Sequence record: NC_041869.1
Strand: one strand, 5' to 3'
Length of the DNA stretch: 64,000 nt
Origin: Escherichia phage APECc02
The number at the start of each line of letters is the position of its first letter. Positions within the stretch are counted from its first letter, which is position 1. The position numbers and the translations under genes were made by a program. Positions 9,506-62,541 of this stretch are shown one piece after another. Under the pieces are notes generated by a model. It did not search any database, had not been told where the DNA came from, and was given only the letters and a program-made list of their open reading frames with translations.

Positions 9506-9811
9506 TCAATCTTTACTTTGCCTCTCCCCCTTACCTTTCTTTCTACCGCACTTAGCCAGTTGACGTGCTGCAACATCTACCATACGGTCAGTTGCCTCGT
9601 AAGCATCACTGCCTTTAGCTTTGGCAATAACTTCTTTTCCAGAATTGTCAAAAATGAACGCCATAACTTCCTGGTGATCATTTTCAACTTTTACACTCAC
9701 ACGTGCATAGTTGGCAGAGGGGTGCAAACGCTCCAGCTTAGACATTTTGTTGGAAATGAAAGACACCATACCTTCAGTGATTTCTACGTTGCCAGTGATT
9801 TCAATTTGCAT
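9506..9811 (-). CDS. hpf: ribosome hibernation promoting factor / RaiA (YfiA) family
   Basis: MQIEITGNVEITEG..KLE..VKVE..ARQLAK aligns along its length with bacterial HPF. Confidence 0.8.
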   Translation of the reverse strand: MQIEITGNVEITEGMVSFISNKMSKLERLHPSANYARVSVKVENDHQEVMAFIFDNSGKEVIAKAKGSDAYEATDRMVDVAARQLAKCGRKKGKGERQSKD

Positions 9812-9830
9812 AACGTGTTCCTTTTAAAGA

Positions 9831-9849
9831 AGAGGGGACCAAACCCTCT
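9831..9849 (-). terminator. hairpin (AGAGGG-GACCAAA-CCCTCT)
   Basis: inverted repeat with T-rich flank on minus strand. Confidence 0.4.
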
Positions 9850-9893
9850 TTGAAAACAATGATACTAAATCTGAAGCGTTGTGTCAACAGTTT

Positions 9894-10184
9894 TTACAGA
9901 TTGTTGTCGATAGTTTTTAAAATATCCACAGCAAGATCTGCCATTTTTCGAACATACTCTGCAAACTCAACAGGATCCTTGATCAAAGAATTCACAGGGT
10001 CGTACCCTAGAGCGTTCAAAATGGTTGCAGCATCTACAACCTTCTCATCATTTGCGAAGATCTCTCCGTCAAACTTGTAGGTCCATTTTGAGTCAACCTT
10101 AGCAGAGCAGGGTTTGTCCATGCTTGTTACACCATCGTCTTTAAACTCTCCTGCGTTATCAATATTCAGAACTAAATCCATCAT
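9894..10184 (-). CDS. hypothetical protein
   Basis: ORF co-oriented. Confidence 0.5.
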   Translation of the reverse strand: MMDLVLNIDNAGEFKDDGVTSMDKPCSAKVDSKWTYKFDGEIFANDEKVVDAATILNALGYDPVNSLIKDPVEFAEYVRKMADLAVDILKTIDNNL

Positions 10185-45259: not shown

Positions 45260-45334
45260 GCCCTGTTAGCTTAGTGGATAAAGCAGCGGCCTTCTAAGCC
45301 GTTGACACTGGTTCGAGTCCAGTACGGGGTGCCA
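45260..45334 (+). tRNA. tRNA-Arg (anticodon TCT), CCA encoded
   Basis: cloverleaf folded by hand: 7-bp acceptor, anticodon loop CTTCTAA, GTTCGAGTC T-loop. Confidence 0.75.
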
Positions 45335-45338
45335 AATT

Positions 45339-45425
45339 GGGGAGTTATCCCGTAGAGGTAGCGGTGTAGACTGTAAATCTATTGTCATTGCGACTCGGGT
45401 GGTTCGACTCCACCACTCCCCACCA
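45339..45425 (+). tRNA. tRNA-Tyr (anticodon GTA), long variable arm
   Basis: anticodon arm AGACTGTAAATCT identical to bacterial tRNA-Tyr; acceptor pairs; CCA encoded. Confidence 0.8.
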
Positions 45426-45539
45426 AATTTACATTTTTAAATGCATAAATCATACAGATAATGGCATTGATATTTATCGTCGTTTATACTAGTCACTAAC
45501 TGCTCGAAAATCAGTGTCATTATCAGTATTGTTTATAAA

Positions 45540-45630
45540 TGAGGGTAGGGAGCAATGGTGCTCAAGCGGTCTTGAAAACCGTCCCGTTGAGGATGACTCG
45601 ATGATGGTTCGATTCCATTACCCTCAGCCA
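45540..45630 (+). tRNA. tRNA-Ser (anticodon TGA), long variable arm
   Basis: anticodon loop CTTGAAA, long variable arm, T-loop TTCGATT; 5' boundary uncertain by 1 nt. Confidence 0.65.
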
Positions 45631-45728
45631 TATTGTTGACCTTGTAATTAAGCGAAAGCCGGAAGCAGAACCGGATTATCAAATGTTACAGTCGTCATCG
45701 CCGACTAGCAACATGGTCAACATACTGA

Positions 45729-45825
45729 GCTAGGTAAGCCCTTTGGCAAGGGCGAGGATTTTTAATCCTGAAAATAGACGAGGTAGTCGTTGAATACATA
45801 GGTGGTTCGATTCCATCACCTAGCA
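45729..45825 (+). ncRNA. atypical tRNA-like element (acceptor and T-arm intact; possible TTT anticodon; ~31-nt variable region)
   Basis: GCTAGGT/ACCTAGC acceptor pairing and GGTTCGATTCC T-arm, but non-canonical middle. Confidence 0.3.
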
Positions 45826-45832
45826 CCTTTTT

Positions 45833-45908
45833 GCTGATGTAGCACAATTGGTAGTGCAATTGATTTGTAATCAATAGGTTGCAGGTTCGAGTCCTGCTAT
45901 CAGCACCA
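45833..45908 (+). tRNA. tRNA-Thr (anticodon TGT), CCA encoded
   Basis: acceptor GCTGATG, D-arm GCAC..GTGC, anticodon loop TTTGTAA. Confidence 0.75.
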
Positions 45909-45909
45909 T

Positions 45910-45984
45910 GGCCCTGTAGCTGGAAGGTTCAAGCAAGCGACTCATAATCGCCAGACGGTGGTTCAATTCCACCCAGGGCCACCA
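45910..45984 (+). tRNA. tRNA-Met or Ile2 (anticodon CAT), CCA encoded
   Basis: acceptor GGCCCTG/CAGGGCC, anticodon loop CTCATAA. Confidence 0.75.
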
Positions 45985-45995
45985 AATAATAAATA

Positions 45996-46072
45996 CTCCG
46001 CGTAGCTCAGCTTGGTAGAGCGCCTGATTTGGGATCAGGAGGTCGAGTGTTCGAATCACTCCGTGGAGACCA
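45996..46072 (+). tRNA. tRNA-Pro (anticodon TGG), CCA encoded
   Basis: canonical D-arm TAGCTCAGCTTGGTAGAGC, anticodon loop TTTGGGA. Confidence 0.75.
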
Positions 46073-57393: not shown

Positions 57394-58770
57394 ATGCCAT
57401 ATTTAGATAAAGTGGTAGATGTTACAGTTAACCTCGGAACCCAGCCTATTGACACTGTAGGTTTCGAAACTCCCCTGTTCATCGCTATCCACAACAACTT
57501 TACTGAGCGAGCTCGCGTATACGCTGAGCTGGATCAGATGGTGGAAGATGGTTTCGCACAAGGCTCTGCAGCGTATGAGTTTGCAGCAAAAGCTTTTGGT
57601 GGTGTATTCCCTCCACAATACGTTATGATCGGCAGACAGGCCAAAGAAAAGACCACTGTAGATTTTAAAGGTATTGCTGCCGCAGCTGATACCGATGTCG
57701 TAATGACTATTGCAAAAGGTAGCTACAATACTTCTTTGATAGTGCCTATCTCTGGTGGAACAGGTGCAACTCAGATTGCAGAGTCAATGAAGACTAAAAT
57801 TGAAGCAGATGATAGCTTGAACGATATCACTGTAGAGGCTGCTGAAGGTGTTCTCACCATCACGGGTGATTGTACTGTTGGTTATCATACTGGCAACTAT
57901 ACAATCAAAAATATCGCCAATGCTGAAAAACCTTCTACAGTAGTTGATAAGATCAATGCTGAGCGTGACAATTGGTACTTCCTGTGCCATGAAGACCACA
58001 CCGACATTGAAGCATGTGCTAAGTGGGCTCAGGCTAACTACAAGCTGCATGTCTACTCTACTGCAGAAGATGTGACTGGTAAAGATAATAACATCGCCAC
58101 CAAACTGATGGCTGCACAATATGACAGTGTTGGCATGTACGATCCTCGTGCTGATAAAGATTTTCCAGAGGGTGGTATCGTAGGCGCTATGGCATCCAAC
58201 GATCCGTCTTACGGTGACAGCTTGCACTTAAAACAGATGCCGGGTGTGATTGCACCATCTCTGACTTTAACTCAGCGTATGGCGATTTGGGAAAACCACG
58301 TTAACTTCTACAGGATGATTAACGGTGTCGGTGCTTTCTGGGAAGGCAAGTGTGCTTCAGGTCAGTATGCAGACGCTATTCGTTTTGCACACTGGATCAA
58401 GTTCAGATCTGAAGAATCCATGTTTGGGTACATGCATCGTCGCTCCAATATGGGTTTAAGCATGAAGATGTCTGATGATGATCTTCCGGTTATCAAGTCT
58501 GTCCTGATGAACAACCCAATCAACACTGGCATTAAGAATGGTGCGATCCTGACAGGTTTCGACGAAGACAATAATGTATTCTACGACCCGATCATCACAG
58601 TTCCTAAACGTGCAGAAATCCCAACCAATCAGTTGGCTGCTCGTGTTCTGGAAGGTGTGAAAGTAGAACTGGTGTATAACAACGCCCTGCACTTCGTTCG
58701 TATCCGGATCAATGTCCTTCTGGACAAAGTTGGTTCTAAATCCACCAATGCTGTTGCAATGACTGAATAA
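57394..58770 (+). CDS. tail sheath protein
   Basis: 458 aa directly upstream of 157-aa tube-sized gene, chaperone and tape measure. Confidence 0.55.
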   Translation: MPYLDKVVDVTVNLGTQPIDTVGFETPLFIAIHNNFTERARVYAELDQMVEDGFAQGSAAYEFAAKAFGGVFPPQYVMIGRQAKEKTTVDFKGIAAAADTDVVMTIAKGSYNTSLIVPISGGTGATQIAESMKTKIEADDSLNDITVEAAEGVLTITGDCTVGYHTGNYTIKNIANAEKPSTVVDKINAERDNWYFLCHEDHTDIEACAKWAQANYKLHVYSTAEDVTGKDNNIATKLMAAQYDSVGMYDPRADKDFPEGGIVGAMASNDPSYGDSLHLKQMPGVIAPSLTLTQRMAIWENHVNFYRMINGVGAFWEGKCASGQYADAIRFAHWIKFRSEESMFGYMHRRSNMGLSMKMSDDDLPVIKSVLMNNPINTGIKNGAILTGFDEDNNVFYDPIITVPKRAEIPTNQLAARVLEGVKVELVYNNALHFVRIRINVLLDKVGSKSTNAVAMTE

Positions 58771-58780
58771 GGAAGCCTAG

Positions 58781-59254
58781 ATGGAAACTCAAATTTTAAC
58801 TCCTTATGCGTATGACCCTAAAAAGGTCAAACTGTATCTGATGCAGCAGCGTGTCACTGGCTTCGCTGCTGACACCAAGATTGTTGTTTCAAGAAACGAA
58901 GACAACATTTACCCTCACGTCGGTGTGGATGGTGAAATGTCTGCGGCTCTGTCTCGTAACCAATCTGGTGTTATGACCGTGTCTTTGCAGAACACTTCTG
59001 TATGGAACGCTTACCTTTCTGACTGGCAGAAACAGGCATCGATTACTGGTCTGGTATTCTTCCCAGTTCTGCTGGAAGGTAGCCAGGGTCCTGGTATTTC
59101 CACAATTGGTTGGATCCAGAAACAGCCTGACCTGACTTACGGAACCGAAGTAGGTCAACTGGACTGGGATATCGGTATTCTGGATGCATGGCTCAACCGT
59201 GATAACATCACTGGTGCTCTTACTGGCCTCGCAGGTCTTGCAGGTATTATCTAA
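58781..59254 (+). CDS. tail tube protein
   Basis: 157 aa after sheath, followed by strong terminator. Confidence 0.55.
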   Translation: METQILTPYAYDPKKVKLYLMQQRVTGFAADTKIVVSRNEDNIYPHVGVDGEMSAALSRNQSGVMTVSLQNTSVWNAYLSDWQKQASITGLVFFPVLLEGSQGPGISTIGWIQKQPDLTYGTEVGQLDWDIGILDAWLNRDNITGALTGLAGLAGII

Positions 59255-59271
59255 GGGCACACTTTAGCATA

Positions 59272-59303
59272 AGCCTCACCTTCGGGTGGGGCTTTTTGCT
59301 TTT
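59272..59303 (+). terminator. rho-independent terminator (AGCCTCACC-TTCG-GGTGGGGCT + TTTTGCTTTT)
   Basis: GC stem, UUCG loop, T-run. Confidence 0.7.
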
Positions 59304-59344
59304 ATGGTTTTGACACACGTTCTTGAATTGCTTGGAAGGTTAAA

Positions 59345-59373
59345 TTGACAATGCACCATAATCATGGTAAAAT
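59345..59373 (+). promoter_or_regulatory. sigma70-type promoter (TTGACA-N17-TAAAAT, TGn-extended)
   Basis: consensus hexamers read directly. Confidence 0.6.
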
Positions 59374-59416
59374 ACACAAATATGGTGCACAACATGACTA
59401 ATAAGGATGCTATAAA

Positions 59417-59890
59417 ATGGCTATAAACTTTAGACCTACAACAGAGATTGATTTAGCAGGGCACAACTTTGTGATCACCCACTGGGGACCGATGAAAGCA
59501 ATGAAAAACATGCCTAAAATCGGTAAGATTGTGGCTGTCCCGCTAGGTGCTATCGGTGGATCTATTATCTCAGGCGGTCAGAACATGGCAGAGGTCCTTC
59601 CTACAGCTCTGGCTTACCTGTTCCAAGAACTTGATGATAACTCTATCGAAGAGTTATTTAAAATTTTGTTCGAAGATATTACCGTAGATGGTGTGGATAA
59701 GCTTAACCCGGATGTTGTGTTTGCAGGGCATCTGCTGGAGATGATTAAGCTGGCAGGTAAGGTTCTGGAGGTTAACTACGGCTGTTTTTTCACACAAGAC
59801 GGTTTAGGAAGCCTTCTGGAGATGTTACAGCAGATGGGTATGATTCAGCAGGTGAACAACCTGGATCAGACTCCGGAAGAGCAGGAATAA
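59417..59890 (+). CDS. tail assembly chaperone (G-like)
   Basis: 157 aa upstream of tape measure; contains slippery heptamer. Confidence 0.6.
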   Translation: MAINFRPTTEIDLAGHNFVITHWGPMKAMKNMPKIGKIVAVPLGAIGGSIISGGQNMAEVLPTALAYLFQELDDNSIEELFKILFEDITVDGVDKLNPDVVFAGHLLEMIKLAGKVLEVNYGCFFTQDGLGSLLEMLQQMGMIQQVNNLDQTPEEQE

Positions 59891-60150
59891 GCAAGGTTGT
59901 TGTGAGGGCCAGTGAGTGGGCAGCCAAGAACAGTTCACTCAACTGGTTCGACTTTCTTTGGTGTAGGGTGCTCAAGAATTTCAAAGGGGAAAATTTTGAA
60001 TCGCTAAATCTTGCAGATATGGCGTATTTCCTGAAGCTCTGTGAGTATCTTGATATCGAAGAATTCCTAGATACCGTCCAAAACAGGGAAATGGAGCGGG
60101 AGCAGAAGGCTGCCGCAGCTGCTGCGAAAGCTAAGCGCAGGAGAGGATAA
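59417..60150 (+). CDS. frameshift-extended tail assembly chaperone isoform (GT-like), about 243 aa
   Basis: joining zero frame to -1 frame at 59791. Confidence 0.5.
59785..59791 (+). other. programmed -1 ribosomal frameshift site T_TTT_TTC
   Basis: X_XXY_YYZ heptamer in zero frame; -1 frame open from 59776 to 60150. Confidence 0.55.
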
Positions 60151-60154
60151 TCTA

Positions 60155-60190
60155 AGGGCCGGATTCCTTTTCTGGGATCTGGCCCTTTTT
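60155..60190 (+). terminator. hairpin plus TTTTTATT
   Basis: GGGCCGGAT...ATCTGGCCC stem. Confidence 0.5.
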
Positions 60191-60204
60191 ATTATGAGGA
60201 AACC

Positions 60205-62541
60205 ATGGCTACAAACAAAATAGTTGCCACAACAGTCAACAAGATTGGCTTTGAGATAGAGAACTCCTCCTACAAAAAAGCTGTAGAGAAAATTCGCAGT
60301 ATTGGGAGGGAGTTCAGGAAACTGGGCGAGGATTTTAACTCAGCCAACCCCATGAGTAGATGGCAGGCGGTAGCTGTTAAAACCCAGCAGACAATGCAGC
60401 GGGTTGCCAGACAGCAATCTCAGGCAAATGCTAAACTGCACAGAGAGAGCGTAGCACAGGCCAAGAAAGAGGCTGCAGTAAGGGCTGCAATAGAACGTAG
60501 GGAGAATGCGAGACGTAAACAAGCTGTAGGTAATCTTACCGCTAAAAATCCAGAAATGGCTAGGATGCGTAAGTTCTACCAGCAGCAAGCTAAAGAGGCC
60601 AAAAAGGCTGCCAAATCTGCACCAGTGTCTTACGGTGGTTATAAGGCACCTAAGGCAAGAGTTTTGGCTAATGCCAAATCTTTCAAATATATCCCAGGTA
60701 ACCCTAATATGGGTGGTGTGGCTTCCGACCCTAACCTTGTGAAAGCTCAGACAGCCGCTATGAATCGTTATCATAGACAGCTAAGAAGAGACAGTAAAGC
60801 TGGTATGGATAATAGGCTTATGTCGGATCGTGAGGCAAGGAGAACCCACCTCTACAACTCCGCGATAAGACTTTCTGCCAAGTATGGGGCCGGATTCCGT
60901 GGAAGCTTGCCAGGATACTCAGAGTTAGAGTCCAGGTTTGCTCGCGGGGAGATGAAGAAGTCAACCTTTAACGCCCACCTGTCAGCGCTGCAGTCTGGGT
61001 TTAAAAGCGCCACCAGCCAAACGCTTACACTAGGCGATGCCATGAGAGACTTACGTAGATCTGTTATTAATGCAACAGCTGCGTATACAGCTTTTTCTGG
61101 ATTTGCTGCGGTTAACAGATCCGGTCACATGATGGAGGGGGCAAGTGCTGCTCTTACTGCTGTCACTGGAGATCCAAACAAAGCCAACAGTGAGGTTGCG
61201 TTTGTCCAGCAAGAGGCTATGCGTCTTGGTTTTGATCTCAAATCTGGTCTTCAAGGTTACGCCCAGATGTCGGTAAACGCCAAAAACCAGATGACAAATC
61301 AGGAAGTGCATGAGCTGTTTTCTGCATACTCCCAGTATGCTGCTGCTTATGGTGCCGATGAGGTAAAATACCAGCGCGGTATTATGGCTATCCAACAGAT
61401 GCTTGGCAAGGGACAAGTAATGTCCGAAGAACTGAAGCAACAACTTGCTGAAGCATTGCCTGGTGCATACGAACCTTTTATCAAGGCCACCAAAGAGGCT
61501 TTTGGTCTTTCTGAACTCTCCATGGATCAGTTCATGGACATGATGAAGAAAGGTGAGGTTAAAACAGCCAAGATCATGAAGTATGTGGCTAAGTACATGA
61601 ACGAGGCATCTGCAGCTGGTTATGAAAGAATGCAGAAGTCTAACGTGCTGGCAGAAAACAGACTGAAAACCTTCATCGAACTGACTCGTCAGAAACTGTT
61701 CACCCGTTGGTCTGACGAACTAACAGAGTTCTATTATACACTAATCCGCACTGGTGAGACTCTGCAATTTGTGTGGGATGCCTCTGGTGATTTTGTTAGC
61801 GGGTTTGTGAGAGGCCTTAACTGGGTAGTTGGTGAACTAAACAACACTATAGTCAAGATCCGCATGTTTTTCCTTGAATGGGGGATTAAATGGGGATTCA
61901 TAACAGCTAAGACGAAGGAATATTCTGAAGAGCTTCATGACACCTTTAGCTATGCTAAATGGGCAGGGTTTGCTGCTGCCATCATGCTGGTAGTCAACGC
62001 CCTAACAAAAGGTTTTGTCATGGCATCCATGCTTGTAAAAACCTTTAAATTCCTTAACTCTCTAAGGGGTGCAGCTGGAGCAGCGGGTGCCGCTACTACA
62101 GAAGGATCTGGTGGTGGAGCTCCGGCAGGAAAAGGTGGGGGTGGCCTCAAGACACCTGGTGGCAAAGTTGGTCTGCTCGGTAAGCTGGGCATTATCGGTA
62201 CAATACTAAGCGCCGGGGAATTATTTAATGACCGTTACAACCCACTAAGTGAAAGAAATCAGCAGCTAGATACTATCAGCGATATGATTCGCAAAGATAT
62301 CATATCGGGAGGTAACGGGTTTGTTAATCCTTTGGACACCTTACCTGGCGGGACTCTTCCGTTGCCGGGTGGCCCTGGTTTTGCTTCTCAATTAAGAACT
62401 ATGGAAATGCTACCTTTAGAGATCAGTGATGGGAAAATCACGATTTCAATAGATGAGGGTGAGTTTAACAAAATATTTGATGCAAAACTTGAGTGGGAGA
62501 ACAATAAAGATATCAACTTCATGTCTACCGACCTTTGGTAA
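60205..62541 (+). CDS. tail tape measure protein
   Basis: 778 aa, Ala/Gln-rich helical N-part, hydrophobic segments, Gly-rich tract. Confidence 0.7.
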   Translation: MATNKIVATTVNKIGFEIENSSYKKAVEKIRSIGREFRKLGEDFNSANPMSRWQAVAVKTQQTMQRVARQQSQANAKLHRESVAQAKKEAAVRAAIERRENARRKQAVGNLTAKNPEMARMRKFYQQQAKEAKKAAKSAPVSYGGYKAPKARVLANAKSFKYIPGNPNMGGVASDPNLVKAQTAAMNRYHRQLRRDSKAGMDNRLMSDREARRTHLYNSAIRLSAKYGAGFRGSLPGYSELESRFARGEMKKSTFNAHLSALQSGFKSATSQTLTLGDAMRDLRRSVINATAAYTAFSGFAAVNRSGHMMEGASAALTAVTGDPNKANSEVAFVQQEAMRLGFDLKSGLQGYAQMSVNAKNQMTNQEVHELFSAYSQYAAAYGADEVKYQRGIMAIQQMLGKGQVMSEELKQQLAEALPGAYEPFIKATKEAFGLSELSMDQFMDMMKKGEVKTAKIMKYVAKYMNEASAAGYERMQKSNVLAENRLKTFIELTRQKLFTRWSDELTEFYYTLIRTGETLQFVWDASGDFVSGFVRGLNWVVGELNNTIVKIRMFFLEWGIKWGFITAKTKEYSEELHDTFSYAKWAGFAAAIMLVVNALTKGFVMASMLVKTFKFLNSLRGAAGAAGAATTEGSGGGAPAGKGGGGLKTPGGKVGLLGKLGIIGTILSAGELFNDRYNPLSERNQQLDTISDMIRKDIISGGNGFVNPLDTLPGGTLPLPGGPGFASQLRTMEMLPLEISDGKITISIDEGEFNKIFDAKLEWENNKDINFMSTDLW

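What the first reader, a model, noticed from the sequence alone, without database searches (positions are those of the whole stretch)
59417..60150. Programmed -1 frameshift in the tail assembly chaperone
The zero frame contains T_TTT_TTC at 59785-59791 and the -1 frame is open from 59776 to 60150, producing a G/GT-like pair just upstream of the tape measure gene. This is a conserved tailed-phage feature and supports the sheath-tube-chaperone-tape measure calls.
Basis: partly seen in the sequence, partly recalled or inferred. Interest (0 to 1): 0.35.

Follow-up and report, generated by a model that had tools for sequence, protein, structure and literature searches.

The report
Tail chaperone −1 frameshift in rV5-like phage
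This rV5-like E. coli phage almost certainly makes a short and a long form of its tail assembly chaperone by letting a few ribosomes slip back one base at a TTTTTTC site, an ordinary and widely known phage trick that databases leave unannotated for this phage group.

Summary
A 157-aa ORF (59417-59890, Pfam Phage_TAC_15, E=2e-23) lies between the tube gene and the tape measure gene. It carries T_TTT_TTC in the zero frame at 59785-59791. The -1 frame is open only from 59776 and runs to 60150.

The window is an rV5-like Vequintavirus (98.5% identical to rV5). In all 26 loci examined, down to 26% fusion-protein identity, the same layout recurs. Seventeen non-redundant lineages keep T_TTT_TTC at the homologous codons. 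One lineage (Rheinheimera Barba19A) has the lambda-type G_GGA_AAG a few bases downstream instead.

Three further results support a fusion product:
- Of 143 aligned codon columns, only five have an invariant third base, and three of them are the heptamer codons.
- The sequence after the G stop evolves as coding sequence in the -1 frame.
- It has no conserved start codon.

I found no conserved downstream RNA structure. None of the 19 annotated GenBank records I inspected joins the two ORFs, and no fused protein appears in the protein databases.

Verdict: a G/GT-type programmed -1 frameshift, well supported by comparison but not shown experimentally. It is a new member of a known kind and of low to moderate interest. 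RNA polymerase slippage on the T6 run is the main rival I could not exclude.

The parts
57394..58770 (+). Tail sheath gene (context)
   Evidence: Pfam DUF3383, E=1e-11. Annotated as tail sheath in rV5 RefSeq. rV5 gp53 was detected in virions by mass spectrometry (PMC3606486).
58781..59254 (+). Tail tube gene (context)
   Evidence: Pfam KPP10_Orf10 / Phage_Tube_PhiTE, E=7e-9. rV5 gp52 was identified as the tail tube protein by virion mass spectrometry.
59271..59294 (+). Terminator-like hairpin after the tube gene
   Evidence: 10-bp stem followed by a T run.
59345..59373 (+). Sigma-70-type promoter-like site upstream of the chaperone gene
   Evidence: TTGACA-17-TAAAAT, 11 of 12 matches with an extended TG. 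Annotated as promoter P51 in the rV5 record. Also present in metagenome relatives L015 and L016, but not found in the other genera.
59403..59407 (+). Ribosome-binding site (AAGGA) of the G gene, 9 nt before the ATG
   Evidence: Read directly from the sequence.
59417..59890 (+). G: zero-frame tail assembly chaperone, 157 aa, 17.3 kDa
   Evidence: PF21822 Phage_TAC_15, E=2e-23. phrog_3840 'tail assembly chaperone', E=5e-69. Mass.
59767..59771 (+). Internal Shine-Dalgarno-like GGAGG, 13 nt upstream of the heptamer (a possible 5' stimulator, unproven)
   Evidence: GGAGG or GAGG at a 13-nt spacer in 11 of the 17 T_TTT_TTC lineages, and GGAG at 14 nt in 2 more. The motif also encodes the conserved Leu-Glu-Val, so the two constraints cannot be separated.
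59785..59791 (+). Slippery heptamer T_TTT_TTC (proposed -1 shift site)
   Evidence: In phase in the zero frame. Invariant in 17 non-redundant lineages. Its three wobble bases are invariant, which is true of only 5 of 143 codon columns.
59791..60150 (+). -1 frame extension (119 codons plus stop). The fusion GT is join(59417..59791,59791..60150): 244 aa, 27.1 kDa
   Evidence: Open -1 frame. Conserved as protein (phrog_10409, E=9e-51; alignment). The post-stop part evolves as -1 frame coding sequence.
59791..59890 (+). Dual-coding overlap. The -1 frame encodes a conserved H-x-R-R-F-R-x-P motif and then a Gly/Ser/Asp-rich linker
   Evidence: Alignment. AF2 pLDDT is below 50 for residues 1-31 of the C-part. 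Substitutions in the overlap follow the zero-frame pattern.
59893..60147 (+). T domain: small helical domain plus a long basic C-terminal helix
   Evidence: AF2 with a 13-sequence alignment predicts helices at residues 35-118 of the C-part, pLDDT 70-91. No PDB fold or sequence match.
60154..60187 (+). Intrinsic-terminator-like hairpin between the GT stop and the tape measure start
   Evidence: 14-bp stem followed by a T run. Annotated as a terminator in rV5. A hairpin plus T run is present, with different stem sequences, in all 10 other Vequintavirinae-type lineages examined, but not in Stephanstirmvirinae.
60205..62541 (+). Tape measure protein gene (context)
   Evidence: Pfam TMP_3, E=1.5e-18.

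Best explanation
This is a lambda G/GT-type programmed -1 ribosomal frameshift in the tail assembly chaperone gene of an rV5-like myovirus.

Proposed mechanism (inferred, not shown):
- Most ribosomes read 59417-59890 and release the 157-aa chaperone G.
- A minority slip when the two tRNA-Phe occupy UUU-UUC (59786-59791). They re-pair one base back on UUU-UUU (59785-59790).
- These ribosomes continue from 59791 in the -1 frame to 60150.
- The product is a 244-aa GT protein: the first 125 residues of G, a disordered Gly/Ser-rich linker of about 30 residues, and a helical domain of about 85 residues with a basic tail.

By analogy with lambda gpG/gpGT and P2 E/E+E', the two forms would coat the tape measure protein at a fixed ratio and promote tube and sheath polymerisation, without entering the virion.

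The shift appears to rely mainly on the heptamer. No downstream RNA structure is conserved. A Shine-Dalgarno-like GGAGG 13 nt upstream may help.
For: Shown directly by the sequence:
- The heptamer is in phase. The -1 frame opens 9 nt before it and runs to 54 nt before the tape measure gene. The +1 frame is closed.

Family and position:
- G matches Phage_TAC_15 (E=2e-23) and lies in the order sheath, tube, chaperone, tape measure.

Comparison across relatives:
- 26 loci were examined: the window, 19 GenBank phages and 6 metagenome contigs. They include Vequintavirinae of five genera, Stephanstirmvirinae, Aeromonas Plateaulakevirus and Rheinheimera Barbavirus. Fusion-protein identity falls to 26%.
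- All have the -1 frame open 224-296 nt past the G stop, giving GT of 231-252 aa.
- T_TTT_TTC is invariant in 17 non-redundant lineages.
- The codon supplying the first T encodes Cys (TGT), Pro (CCT) or Ser (AGT, TCT), yet always ends in T.
- Only 5 of 143 codon columns have an invariant third base: Trp, one Asn, and the three heptamer codons.
- Barba19A has lost the T run and has an in-phase G_GGA_AAG a few bases downstream. The function is kept while the sequence changes.

The extension is coding and depends on upstream translation:
- Post-stop substitutions concentrate at -1 frame third positions. Window versus L015 gives [8,1,28], with 26 synonymous and 6 non-synonymous codon changes. The pattern reverses in the other two frames.
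- Candidate start codons are not conserved. The first one falls at codon 84 of 126 in KpS8, 68 in pEp_SNUABM_01 and 64 in PBES02, all inside the conserved domain.
- Database ORFs for this region have ragged N-termini of 43-102 aa.
- The -1 frame motif R-F-R directly after the slip site is conserved.

Literature:
- U_UU.U_UU.C is among the efficient -1 motifs in E. coli and is used by IS elements (PMC4066793).
- The same GTTTTT motif was proposed as a -1 frameshift site in the chaperone genes of Vandenendeviridae and Andersonviridae. That paper reports these families as related to Vequintavirinae (PMC12846349).
Against: - There is no experimental evidence for the fusion protein in any phage of this group. 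The rV5 genome and proteome paper mentions neither a frameshift nor a chaperone.
- No conserved or unusually stable RNA structure follows the heptamer. In the window, z = -1.35 for 116 nt. The consensus fold scores -5 kcal/mol with no covariation. Per-lineage z-scores are mostly positive. No Rfam family matches.
- The upstream SD-like motif is absent or displaced in 4 of 17 lineages and overlaps conserved codons.
- A run of six T could also support RNA polymerase slippage, which would give the same protein.
- In this window a GTG at 59902 with a weak AAGG 5 nt upstream could allow some independent initiation of an 82-aa product.
Confidence: 0.85

Rival explanations
1. RNA polymerase slippage. 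The polymerase stutters on the T6 run (59785-59790) and adds one U to a fraction of transcripts. Normal translation of those mRNAs then yields the same 244-aa GT protein.
For: - The shift site is a homopolymer run conserved in 17 lineages.
- No RNA stimulator for ribosomal shifting was found.
- The protein product would be identical, so the conservation data do not discriminate between the two mechanisms.
[quoted passage not shown] This rests only on the title of Vladimirov et al. 2022 as cited in PMC12846349; I did not read that paper.
Against: - Productive bacterial slippage is described for runs of about 9 A or T (PMC5009743). Here the run is 6.
- Barba19A replaces the run with G_GGA_AAG, a classic tandem-slippage heptamer that is not a homopolymer, in the correct phase.
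- U_UU.U_UU.C is a measured ribosomal -1 motif in E. coli.
Confidence: 0.08
2. Two separate genes, as most GenBank records annotate them. The downstream ORF is translated on its own from GTG 59902, possibly by re-initiation after the G stop 12 nt upstream, giving an 82-aa protein. No fusion is made.
For: - GTG 59902 has a weak AAGG 5 nt upstream.
- The rV5, DrSchubert, Mangalyan, PVP-SE1 and other records annotate a separate small ORF.
- PHROGs holds it as its own families of unknown function.
Against: - No start codon is conserved. In KpS8, pEp_SNUABM_01 and PBES02 the first ATG/GTG/TTG lies 64-84 codons into the -1 region, inside the conserved domain.
- Gene callers give 43-102 aa products with ragged N-termini.
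- The -1 frame stays open back to the heptamer in all 26 loci, and its first residues (R-F-R) are conserved.
- This model does not explain the invariant wobble bases of the heptamer.
Confidence: 0.05
3. Coincidence. The heptamer is just a Phe-Phe dipeptide and the open -1 frame is a chance feature or a decayed gene.
For: TTTTTTC is not over-represented in the window: 10 observed against about 7.7 expected.
Against: - 119 open -1 codons against a median of 8 for other in-phase heptamers in the window.
- Purifying selection acts in the -1 frame.
- The layout is conserved across 26 loci.
- The wobble positions are invariant even though the amino acid at the first heptamer codon changes.
Confidence: 0.01

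Closest known systems
Phage lambda gpG/gpGT programmed -1 frameshift (Levin, Hendrix & Casjens 1993; Xu, Hendrix & Duda 2004, 2013, 2014; summarised in PMC5009743)
   Same: - Two overlapping ORFs lie immediately upstream of the tape measure gene.
[quoted passage not shown]
- The second ORF is in the -1 frame and has no start codon of its own.
- The result is a short and a long chaperone sharing an N-terminal part.
- One relative here (Barba19A) uses the lambda heptamer G_GGA_AAG.
   Different: - The heptamer is T_TTT_TTC.
- The chaperone belongs to a different sequence family (Phage_TAC_15).
- The phage has a contractile tail.
- The cassette has its own promoter-like site and is followed by a conserved terminator hairpin before the tape measure gene.
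- The frameshift rate, and whether the T domain has the same binding partners as in lambda, are unknown.
Phage P2 E / E+E' frameshift in the FETUD tail operon (Christie et al. 2002). Recalled from my own knowledge; mentioned in PMC5009743 as having 2- to 3-fold higher efficiency
   Same: - A myovirus with the order sheath, tube, chaperone pair, tape measure.
- From memory, a T-rich slippery run.
   Different: No detectable sequence similarity was tested or found here, and the genome type is different (a temperate 33-kb phage against a lytic phage of about 137 kb).
Conserved GTTTTT -1 frameshift proposed for the TAC-N/TAC-NC locus of Vandenendeviridae (Pakpunavirus Adele) and Andersonviridae (PMC12846349). 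[quoted passage not shown]
   Same: [quoted passage not shown]
- An uninterrupted -1 frame up to the tape measure gene.
- The downstream ORF is routinely mis-annotated as a hypothetical protein.
- These families are reported as structural relatives of Vequintavirinae.
   Different: That paper analysed Vandenendeviridae and Andersonviridae only, not Vequintavirinae or Stephanstirmvirinae. I did not test direct homology between those chaperones and this one. tblastn with G did not list them among the organisms shown.
E. coli dnaX and IS-element -1 frameshift signals
   Same: A tandem-slippage heptamer. U_UU.U_UU.C is used by some IS elements. There is a possible internal Shine-Dalgarno stimulator upstream.
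   Different: No downstream stem-loop or pseudoknot was detected. The expected efficiency is therefore low rather than about 50%.

Membership tests
G/GT-type tail assembly chaperone frameshift cassette (Xu, Hendrix & Duda 2004) | Pair of overlapping ORFs located between the major tail (tube) gene and the tape measure gene | tested here: met
   Tube 58781-59254, G 59417-59890, -1 ORF to 60150, tape measure 60205-62541.
G/GT-type tail assembly chaperone frameshift cassette (Xu, Hendrix & Duda 2004) | Upstream ORF belongs to a tail assembly chaperone family | tested here: met
   PF21822 Phage_TAC_15, E=2.3e-23 (cut-off 22 bits, score 83.6). phrog_3840, E=5e-69.
G/GT-type tail assembly chaperone frameshift cassette (Xu, Hendrix & Duda 2004) | [quoted passage not shown] | tested here: met
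   T_TTT_TTC at 59785-59791. It is the only in-phase heptamer in the G ORF.
G/GT-type tail assembly chaperone frameshift cassette (Xu, Hendrix & Duda 2004) | Downstream ORF in the -1 frame without its own conserved start codon or ribosome-binding site | tested here: met
   Start positions vary from codon 36 to codon 84 of the -1 region and no strong SD is present. Database ORFs have ragged N-termini.
G/GT-type tail assembly chaperone frameshift cassette (Xu, Hendrix & Duda 2004) | Layout conserved among diverged relatives, with selection on the shift site | tested here: met
   26 loci. Invariant wobble bases. Shift-site replacement in Barba19A.
G/GT-type tail assembly chaperone frameshift cassette (Xu, Hendrix & Duda 2004) | Fusion protein is actually made, at a low fixed ratio to the short form | not testable with these tools
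   Needs mass spectrometry, western blot or a reporter assay. No published data were found for this phage group.
G/GT-type tail assembly chaperone frameshift cassette (Xu, Hendrix & Duda 2004) | Both products are needed for tail assembly but are absent from virions | not testable with these tools
   The major virion proteins named in the rV5 paper's text do not include gp50 or gp51. I did not read its full supplementary table.
Stimulated bacterial -1 frameshift signals (dnaX / IS911 type) | Stable stem-loop or pseudoknot 5-9 nt downstream of the heptamer | tested here: not met
   No excess stability (z from -2.25 to +1.5, mostly positive) and no covariation.
Stimulated bacterial -1 frameshift signals (dnaX / IS911 type) | Internal Shine-Dalgarno sequence about 10-14 nt upstream of the heptamer (spacing recalled from Larsen et al. 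1994, my own knowledge) | tested here: inconclusive
   GGAGG at 59767-59771 with a 13-nt spacer. Present at 13-14 nt in 13 of 17 lineages, but it overlaps the conserved Leu-Glu-Val codons.
Transcriptional slippage recoding | Long homopolymer run (about 9 A or T in the described bacterial cases) | tested here: not met
   The run is T6. Barba19A has no homopolymer at the site. The run length criterion is from PMC5009743.

The most novel reading that the evidence does not exclude
In this clade the output of the chaperone cassette may be set at three conserved levels rather than by the slippery site alone.

1. A heptamer that works without any downstream RNA structure. It might be helped by an internal Shine-Dalgarno contact 13 nt upstream, or by the conserved CGGTTTCG block (or its R-F-R nascent peptide) just downstream.
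2. A dedicated strong promoter in the Vequintavirus genus.
3. A terminator hairpin whose stem sequence differs between lineages, placed between GT and the tape measure gene. It would hold chaperone transcripts in excess over tape measure transcripts.

If the 3' block or the nascent peptide proved to be a new kind of frameshift stimulator, that would be the novel part.
Probability: 0.15. Interest if true: 0.45.

Novelty: new member of a known kind. Interest (0 to 1): 0.25.

Why it matters
The main value is for annotation.

- The fusion is missing from all 19 annotated GenBank records I inspected.
- It is absent from a 5.8-billion-protein collection. All 73 hits to the fusion are 149-159 aa.
- PHROGs files the extension as three families of unknown function.

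Correcting this would rename hundreds of small 'hypothetical proteins' in Vequintavirinae, Stephanstirmvirinae, Plateaulakevirus and Barbavirus genomes. It would also remove spurious small ORFs with arbitrary start codons.

Biologically it extends the G/GT rule to a large group of lytic myoviruses of 115-150 kb that are used in phage therapy and biocontrol. It gives a clean natural example of shift-site turnover (T_TTT_TTC to G_GGA_AAG). It does not change the understanding of frameshifting or of tail assembly.

Tried and rejected
- **Downstream stimulatory RNA.** I folded the window, a seven-lineage consensus and 45- and 70-nt stretches in each of 18 lineages against shuffles. Nothing was conserved or unusually stable. 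Only Aeromonas 4L372XY has a local hairpin (z = -2.25). No Rfam family matched.
- **AlphaFold2 of the whole GT from a single sequence.** pLDDT was 37.7, so the model is unusable.
- **Mixed alignment of GT with G and T homologues (A4).** MAFFT misaligned it, so I discarded it.
- **T domain.** A 13-sequence alignment gave a usable helical model (pLDDT 70). Foldseek against the PDB found nothing (best E = 5.4). phmmer of GT against PDB sequences found nothing.
- **Natural in-frame G+T fusions.** None turned up.
- **Weak matches of the T part to proteins of 737-1311 aa.** The three long proteins I scanned with Pfam are DUF285 / leucine-rich-repeat proteins, so I treat these matches as pattern similarity, not homology.
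- **Literature.** I found no description of this frameshift in rV5-like phages. A 2026 paper with mass-spectrometry 'frameshift peptides' concerns T4-like phages and is irrelevant.

Full report
**What the window is.** The region 57394-62541 is 98.4-98.8% identical to many Escherichia phages of the genus Vequintavirus, and 98.5% identical to the type phage rV5. Pfam assigns the following:

| Coordinates | Pfam hit | Role |
|---|---|---|
| 57394-58770 | DUF3383 | tail sheath |
| 58781-59254 | KPP10_Orf10 | tail tube |
| 59417-59890 | Phage_TAC_15, E=2.3e-23 | tail assembly chaperone |
| 60205-62541 | TMP_3 | tape measure |
| the two ORFs after it | Dit_like, Pam3_gp18 | baseplate proteins |

rV5 gp53 and gp52 were identified in virions as sheath and tube by mass spectrometry (PMC3606486).

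**Checking the observation.**
- The zero-frame ORF runs from ATG 59417 to TAA 59888-59890 (157 aa).
- Its codons TGT (59783), TTT (59786) and TTC (59789) put T_TTT_TTC at 59785-59791 in the X_XXY_YYZ phase.
- The -1 frame has a stop at 59773-59775 and is then open from 59776 to 60150.
- The +1 frame is closed.
- A slip at the heptamer gives 125 zero-frame residues plus 119 -1 frame residues. That is a 244-aa, 27.1-kDa protein, against 157 aa and 17.3 kDa for the unshifted product.

The heptamer by itself is not unusual. There are 10 TTTTTTC on the + strand against about 7.7 expected. The combination is. Of 53 in-phase heptamers in ORFs of at least 100 aa in the window, this one is followed by 119 open -1 codons. 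The median is 8.

**Comparative evidence.** I collected homologous loci from GenBank phages and from metagenome contigs.
- With the window this makes 26 loci.
- They cover Vequintavirinae (Vequinta-, Seuna-, Henuna-, Mydo- and Certrevirus, and W70), Stephanstirmvirinae, Aeromonas Plateaulakevirus and Rheinheimera Barbavirus.
- Fusion-protein identity to the window falls to 26%.
- In every locus the -1 frame is open from shortly before a slippery heptamer to 224-296 nt beyond the G stop. Where the tape measure gene directly follows, it ends 14-151 nt before that gene (usually 50-64 nt). The +1 frame closes within a few codons.
- Predicted GT lengths are 231-252 aa.

Seventeen non-redundant lineages carry T_TTT_TTC at the homologous codons. 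The codon that provides the first T encodes Cys (TGT), Pro (CCT) or Ser (AGT or TCT), yet always ends in T. In a codon alignment of G, only 5 of 143 columns have an invariant third base. These are the single Trp codon, one Asn codon, and the three consecutive heptamer codons. The mean third-base identity is 0.53. This points to selection on the nucleotides rather than on the amino acids.

Rheinheimera phage Barba19A has lost the T run (TGTCTAACTTC). It has an in-phase G_GGA_AAG, the lambda heptamer, a few bases downstream, and its -1 frame is open in the same way. This is what selection for the recoding event itself would produce.

**The extension is coding and depends on upstream translation.**
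- Beyond the G stop, substitutions between relatives fall mainly on -1 frame third positions. Window versus L015 gives [8,1,28], with 26 synonymous and 6 non-synonymous codon changes. Window versus L016 gives [18,15,56], with 44 and 19. The same region read in the other two frames gives the reverse pattern.
- The product matches PHROG families of unknown function (phrog_10409, E=9e-51).
- Potential start codons are not conserved. The first ATG/GTG/TTG in the -1 region is codon 38 in the window, but codon 84 of 126 in KpS8, 68 in pEp_SNUABM_01 and 64 in PBES02. Those lie well inside the conserved KNSSLxWFDYLWCR...EYLD core. None has a strong Shine-Dalgarno sequence.
- Gene callers accordingly produce ORFs of 43-102 aa with ragged N-termini.
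- The first -1 frame residues after the slip (H/R/Q-x-R-R-F-R-x-P) are conserved across subfamilies.
- Inside the 100-nt overlap, substitutions follow the zero-frame pattern. There the -1 frame encodes a variable-length Gly/Ser/Asp-rich segment, which AlphaFold2 predicts as disordered (pLDDT below 50 for residues 1-31). It is followed by a helical domain (residues 35-118, pLDDT 70-91).
- That domain has no solved structural or sequence relative.

**Mechanism.** The best-supported reading is tandem -1 slippage of two tRNA-Phe from UUU-UUC to UUU-UUU. U_UU.U_UU.C belongs to the H_HH.U_UU.Y class, which Sharma et al. list among the most efficient -1 motifs in E. coli. It shifts at more than 0.1% without stimulators, is under-represented in E. 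coli genes and is used by some IS elements (PMC4066793).

I found no downstream stimulator. From memory, lambda G/GT also needs only its heptamer.

A GGAGG lies 13 nt upstream (59767-59771). An SD-like motif occurs at 13-14 nt in 13 of 17 lineages. Internal SD sequences stimulate -1 shifting in dnaX and in many IS elements (PMC5009743). However, this motif also encodes the conserved Leu-Glu-Val, so its role is open.

The function of the two proteins is inferred from lambda, where gpG and gpGT coat the tape measure protein and the T domain recruits the tail tube protein (PMC5009743). It was not tested here.

**Rivals.**
- RNA polymerase slippage on the T6 run would give the same protein and cannot be excluded from sequence alone. 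The run is short compared with described cases (about 9), and the Barba19A site is not a homopolymer.
- Separate initiation at GTG 59902 is possible as a minor extra route in this phage. It cannot explain the data from the relatives.
- Chance is excluded.

**Novelty.** The G/GT frameshift is a textbook, widely conserved feature of long-tailed phages (PMC5009743).
- A December 2025 paper proposed the same GTTTTT-type site for Vandenendeviridae and Andersonviridae. It reports those families as related to Vequintavirinae, but it did not analyse Vequintavirinae or Stephanstirmvirinae (PMC12846349).
- Moogle is annotated with a frameshifted chaperone (PMC4319497).
- For rV5-like phages I found no description.
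- None of the 19 annotated GenBank records inspected has a joined CDS.
- No fused protein turned up in the protein collections searched.
- rV5 RefSeq annotates gp050 from a CTG at the slippery site, with no join.

This is therefore a new, well-supported member of a known kind. It is useful for annotation but not surprising.

Noticed in passing
window 60154-60187; also L004, L005, L006, L007, L008, L009, L015, L016, L019 and L020, between the GT stop and the tape measure start: A terminator-like hairpin with a T run sits in the spacer of about 50-64 nt between the chaperone cassette and the tape measure gene. It is present in all 11 Vequintavirinae-type lineages checked, including the window. 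The stem sequences differ but still pair (for example GGGCCGGATTCC/GGGATCTGGCCC, AAGCCGGGTTCC/GGGAGCCTGGCTT and GGCCAAGATC/GGTCTTGGCC). It is absent in Stephanstirmvirinae, where the spacer is 14-20 nt (151 nt in Eryne). It may keep chaperone transcripts in excess over tape measure transcripts.
   Followed up: partly
window 59345-59373: A near-consensus sigma-70 promoter (TTGACA-17-TAAAAT with an extended TG) lies directly upstream of the chaperone gene and just after a terminator-like hairpin at 59271-59294. The G/GT pair therefore looks like a separate transcription unit inside the tail module. The promoter is seen only in the Vequintavirus genus and in close metagenome relatives.
   Followed up: partly
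L012 (Rheinheimera phage Barba19A) 1500-1530: Shift-site turnover. The ancestral TGTTTTTTC is degraded to TGTCTAACTTC, and an in-phase G_GGA_AAG (the lambda-type heptamer) appears a few bases downstream. 115 Rheinheimera phage records match the chaperone protein; only Barba19A was inspected for the site.
   Followed up: partly
window 59798-59806 and homologous positions: A nucleotide block CGGTTT(C/A)G, 7-16 nt after the heptamer, is nearly invariant across subfamilies. It is read as Gly-Phe/Leu in the zero frame and as Arg-Phe-Arg in the -1 frame. I could not tell whether the constraint is protein-level in one or both frames or whether the block helps frameshifting.
   Followed up: partly
window 45260-46072, especially 45729-45827: A cluster of seven predicted tRNA genes (Arg-TCT, Tyr, Ser-TGA, Thr, Met, Pro, and one unassigned). 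The unassigned call is 99 nt long with a four-base anticodon 'atcc'. It may be an ARAGORN artefact, a pseudo-tRNA or something odd. There is no tRNA-Phe, so it has no obvious link to the frameshift.
   Followed up: no
window 9518-9853 and 9850-10080: The second-longest -1 continuation after an in-phase heptamer in the window is T_TTA_AAG at 9823, with 83 open -1 codons. The -1 ORF has its own TTG start at 9850, overlapping the upstream stop by 4 nt. It looks like an ordinary coupled gene pair. ORFs of similar size also lie on the opposite strand, so the coding strand is uncertain.
   Followed up: partly
GenBank records MG0656xx ('Campylobacter phage' C9, C11, D1, A140 and others): Between 18 and 23 records named as Campylobacter jejuni phages are about 99-100% identical to rV5-like E. 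coli phages in this region. Most of those listed carry no annotation. They are probably mislabelled or contaminated isolates.
   Followed up: no
L011 2019-2784 (Aeromonas 4L372XY); L012 1820-2458 (Barba19A); L016 1-1397: Endonuclease genes are inserted next to the chaperone cassette. An endonuclease in 4L372XY and an HNH endonuclease in Barba19A lie between GT and the tape measure gene. In a gut-metagenome Vequintavirus relative, a 512-aa DUF723 protein lies just upstream of G.
   Followed up: no
L001 3889-4257 (rV5 RefSeq gp050), equivalent to window 59782-60150: The rV5 record annotates ORF50 from a CTG codon that overlaps the slippery site. The annotators extended it almost to the start of the open -1 frame without a canonical start codon and without a join. 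One database ORF (P0081) likewise begins 'MFFQERFR', at the heptamer itself.
   Followed up: yes
C-part residues 46-88 (window about 59926-60054): The T domain gives weak, multi-stretch HMMER matches (E from 4e-6 to 8e-4) to DUF285 / leucine-rich-repeat proteins of 737-1311 aa. This is probably pattern similarity to the repeat (N-x-S-L-x-W-F-D...L-K-x-F) rather than homology.
   Followed up: partly
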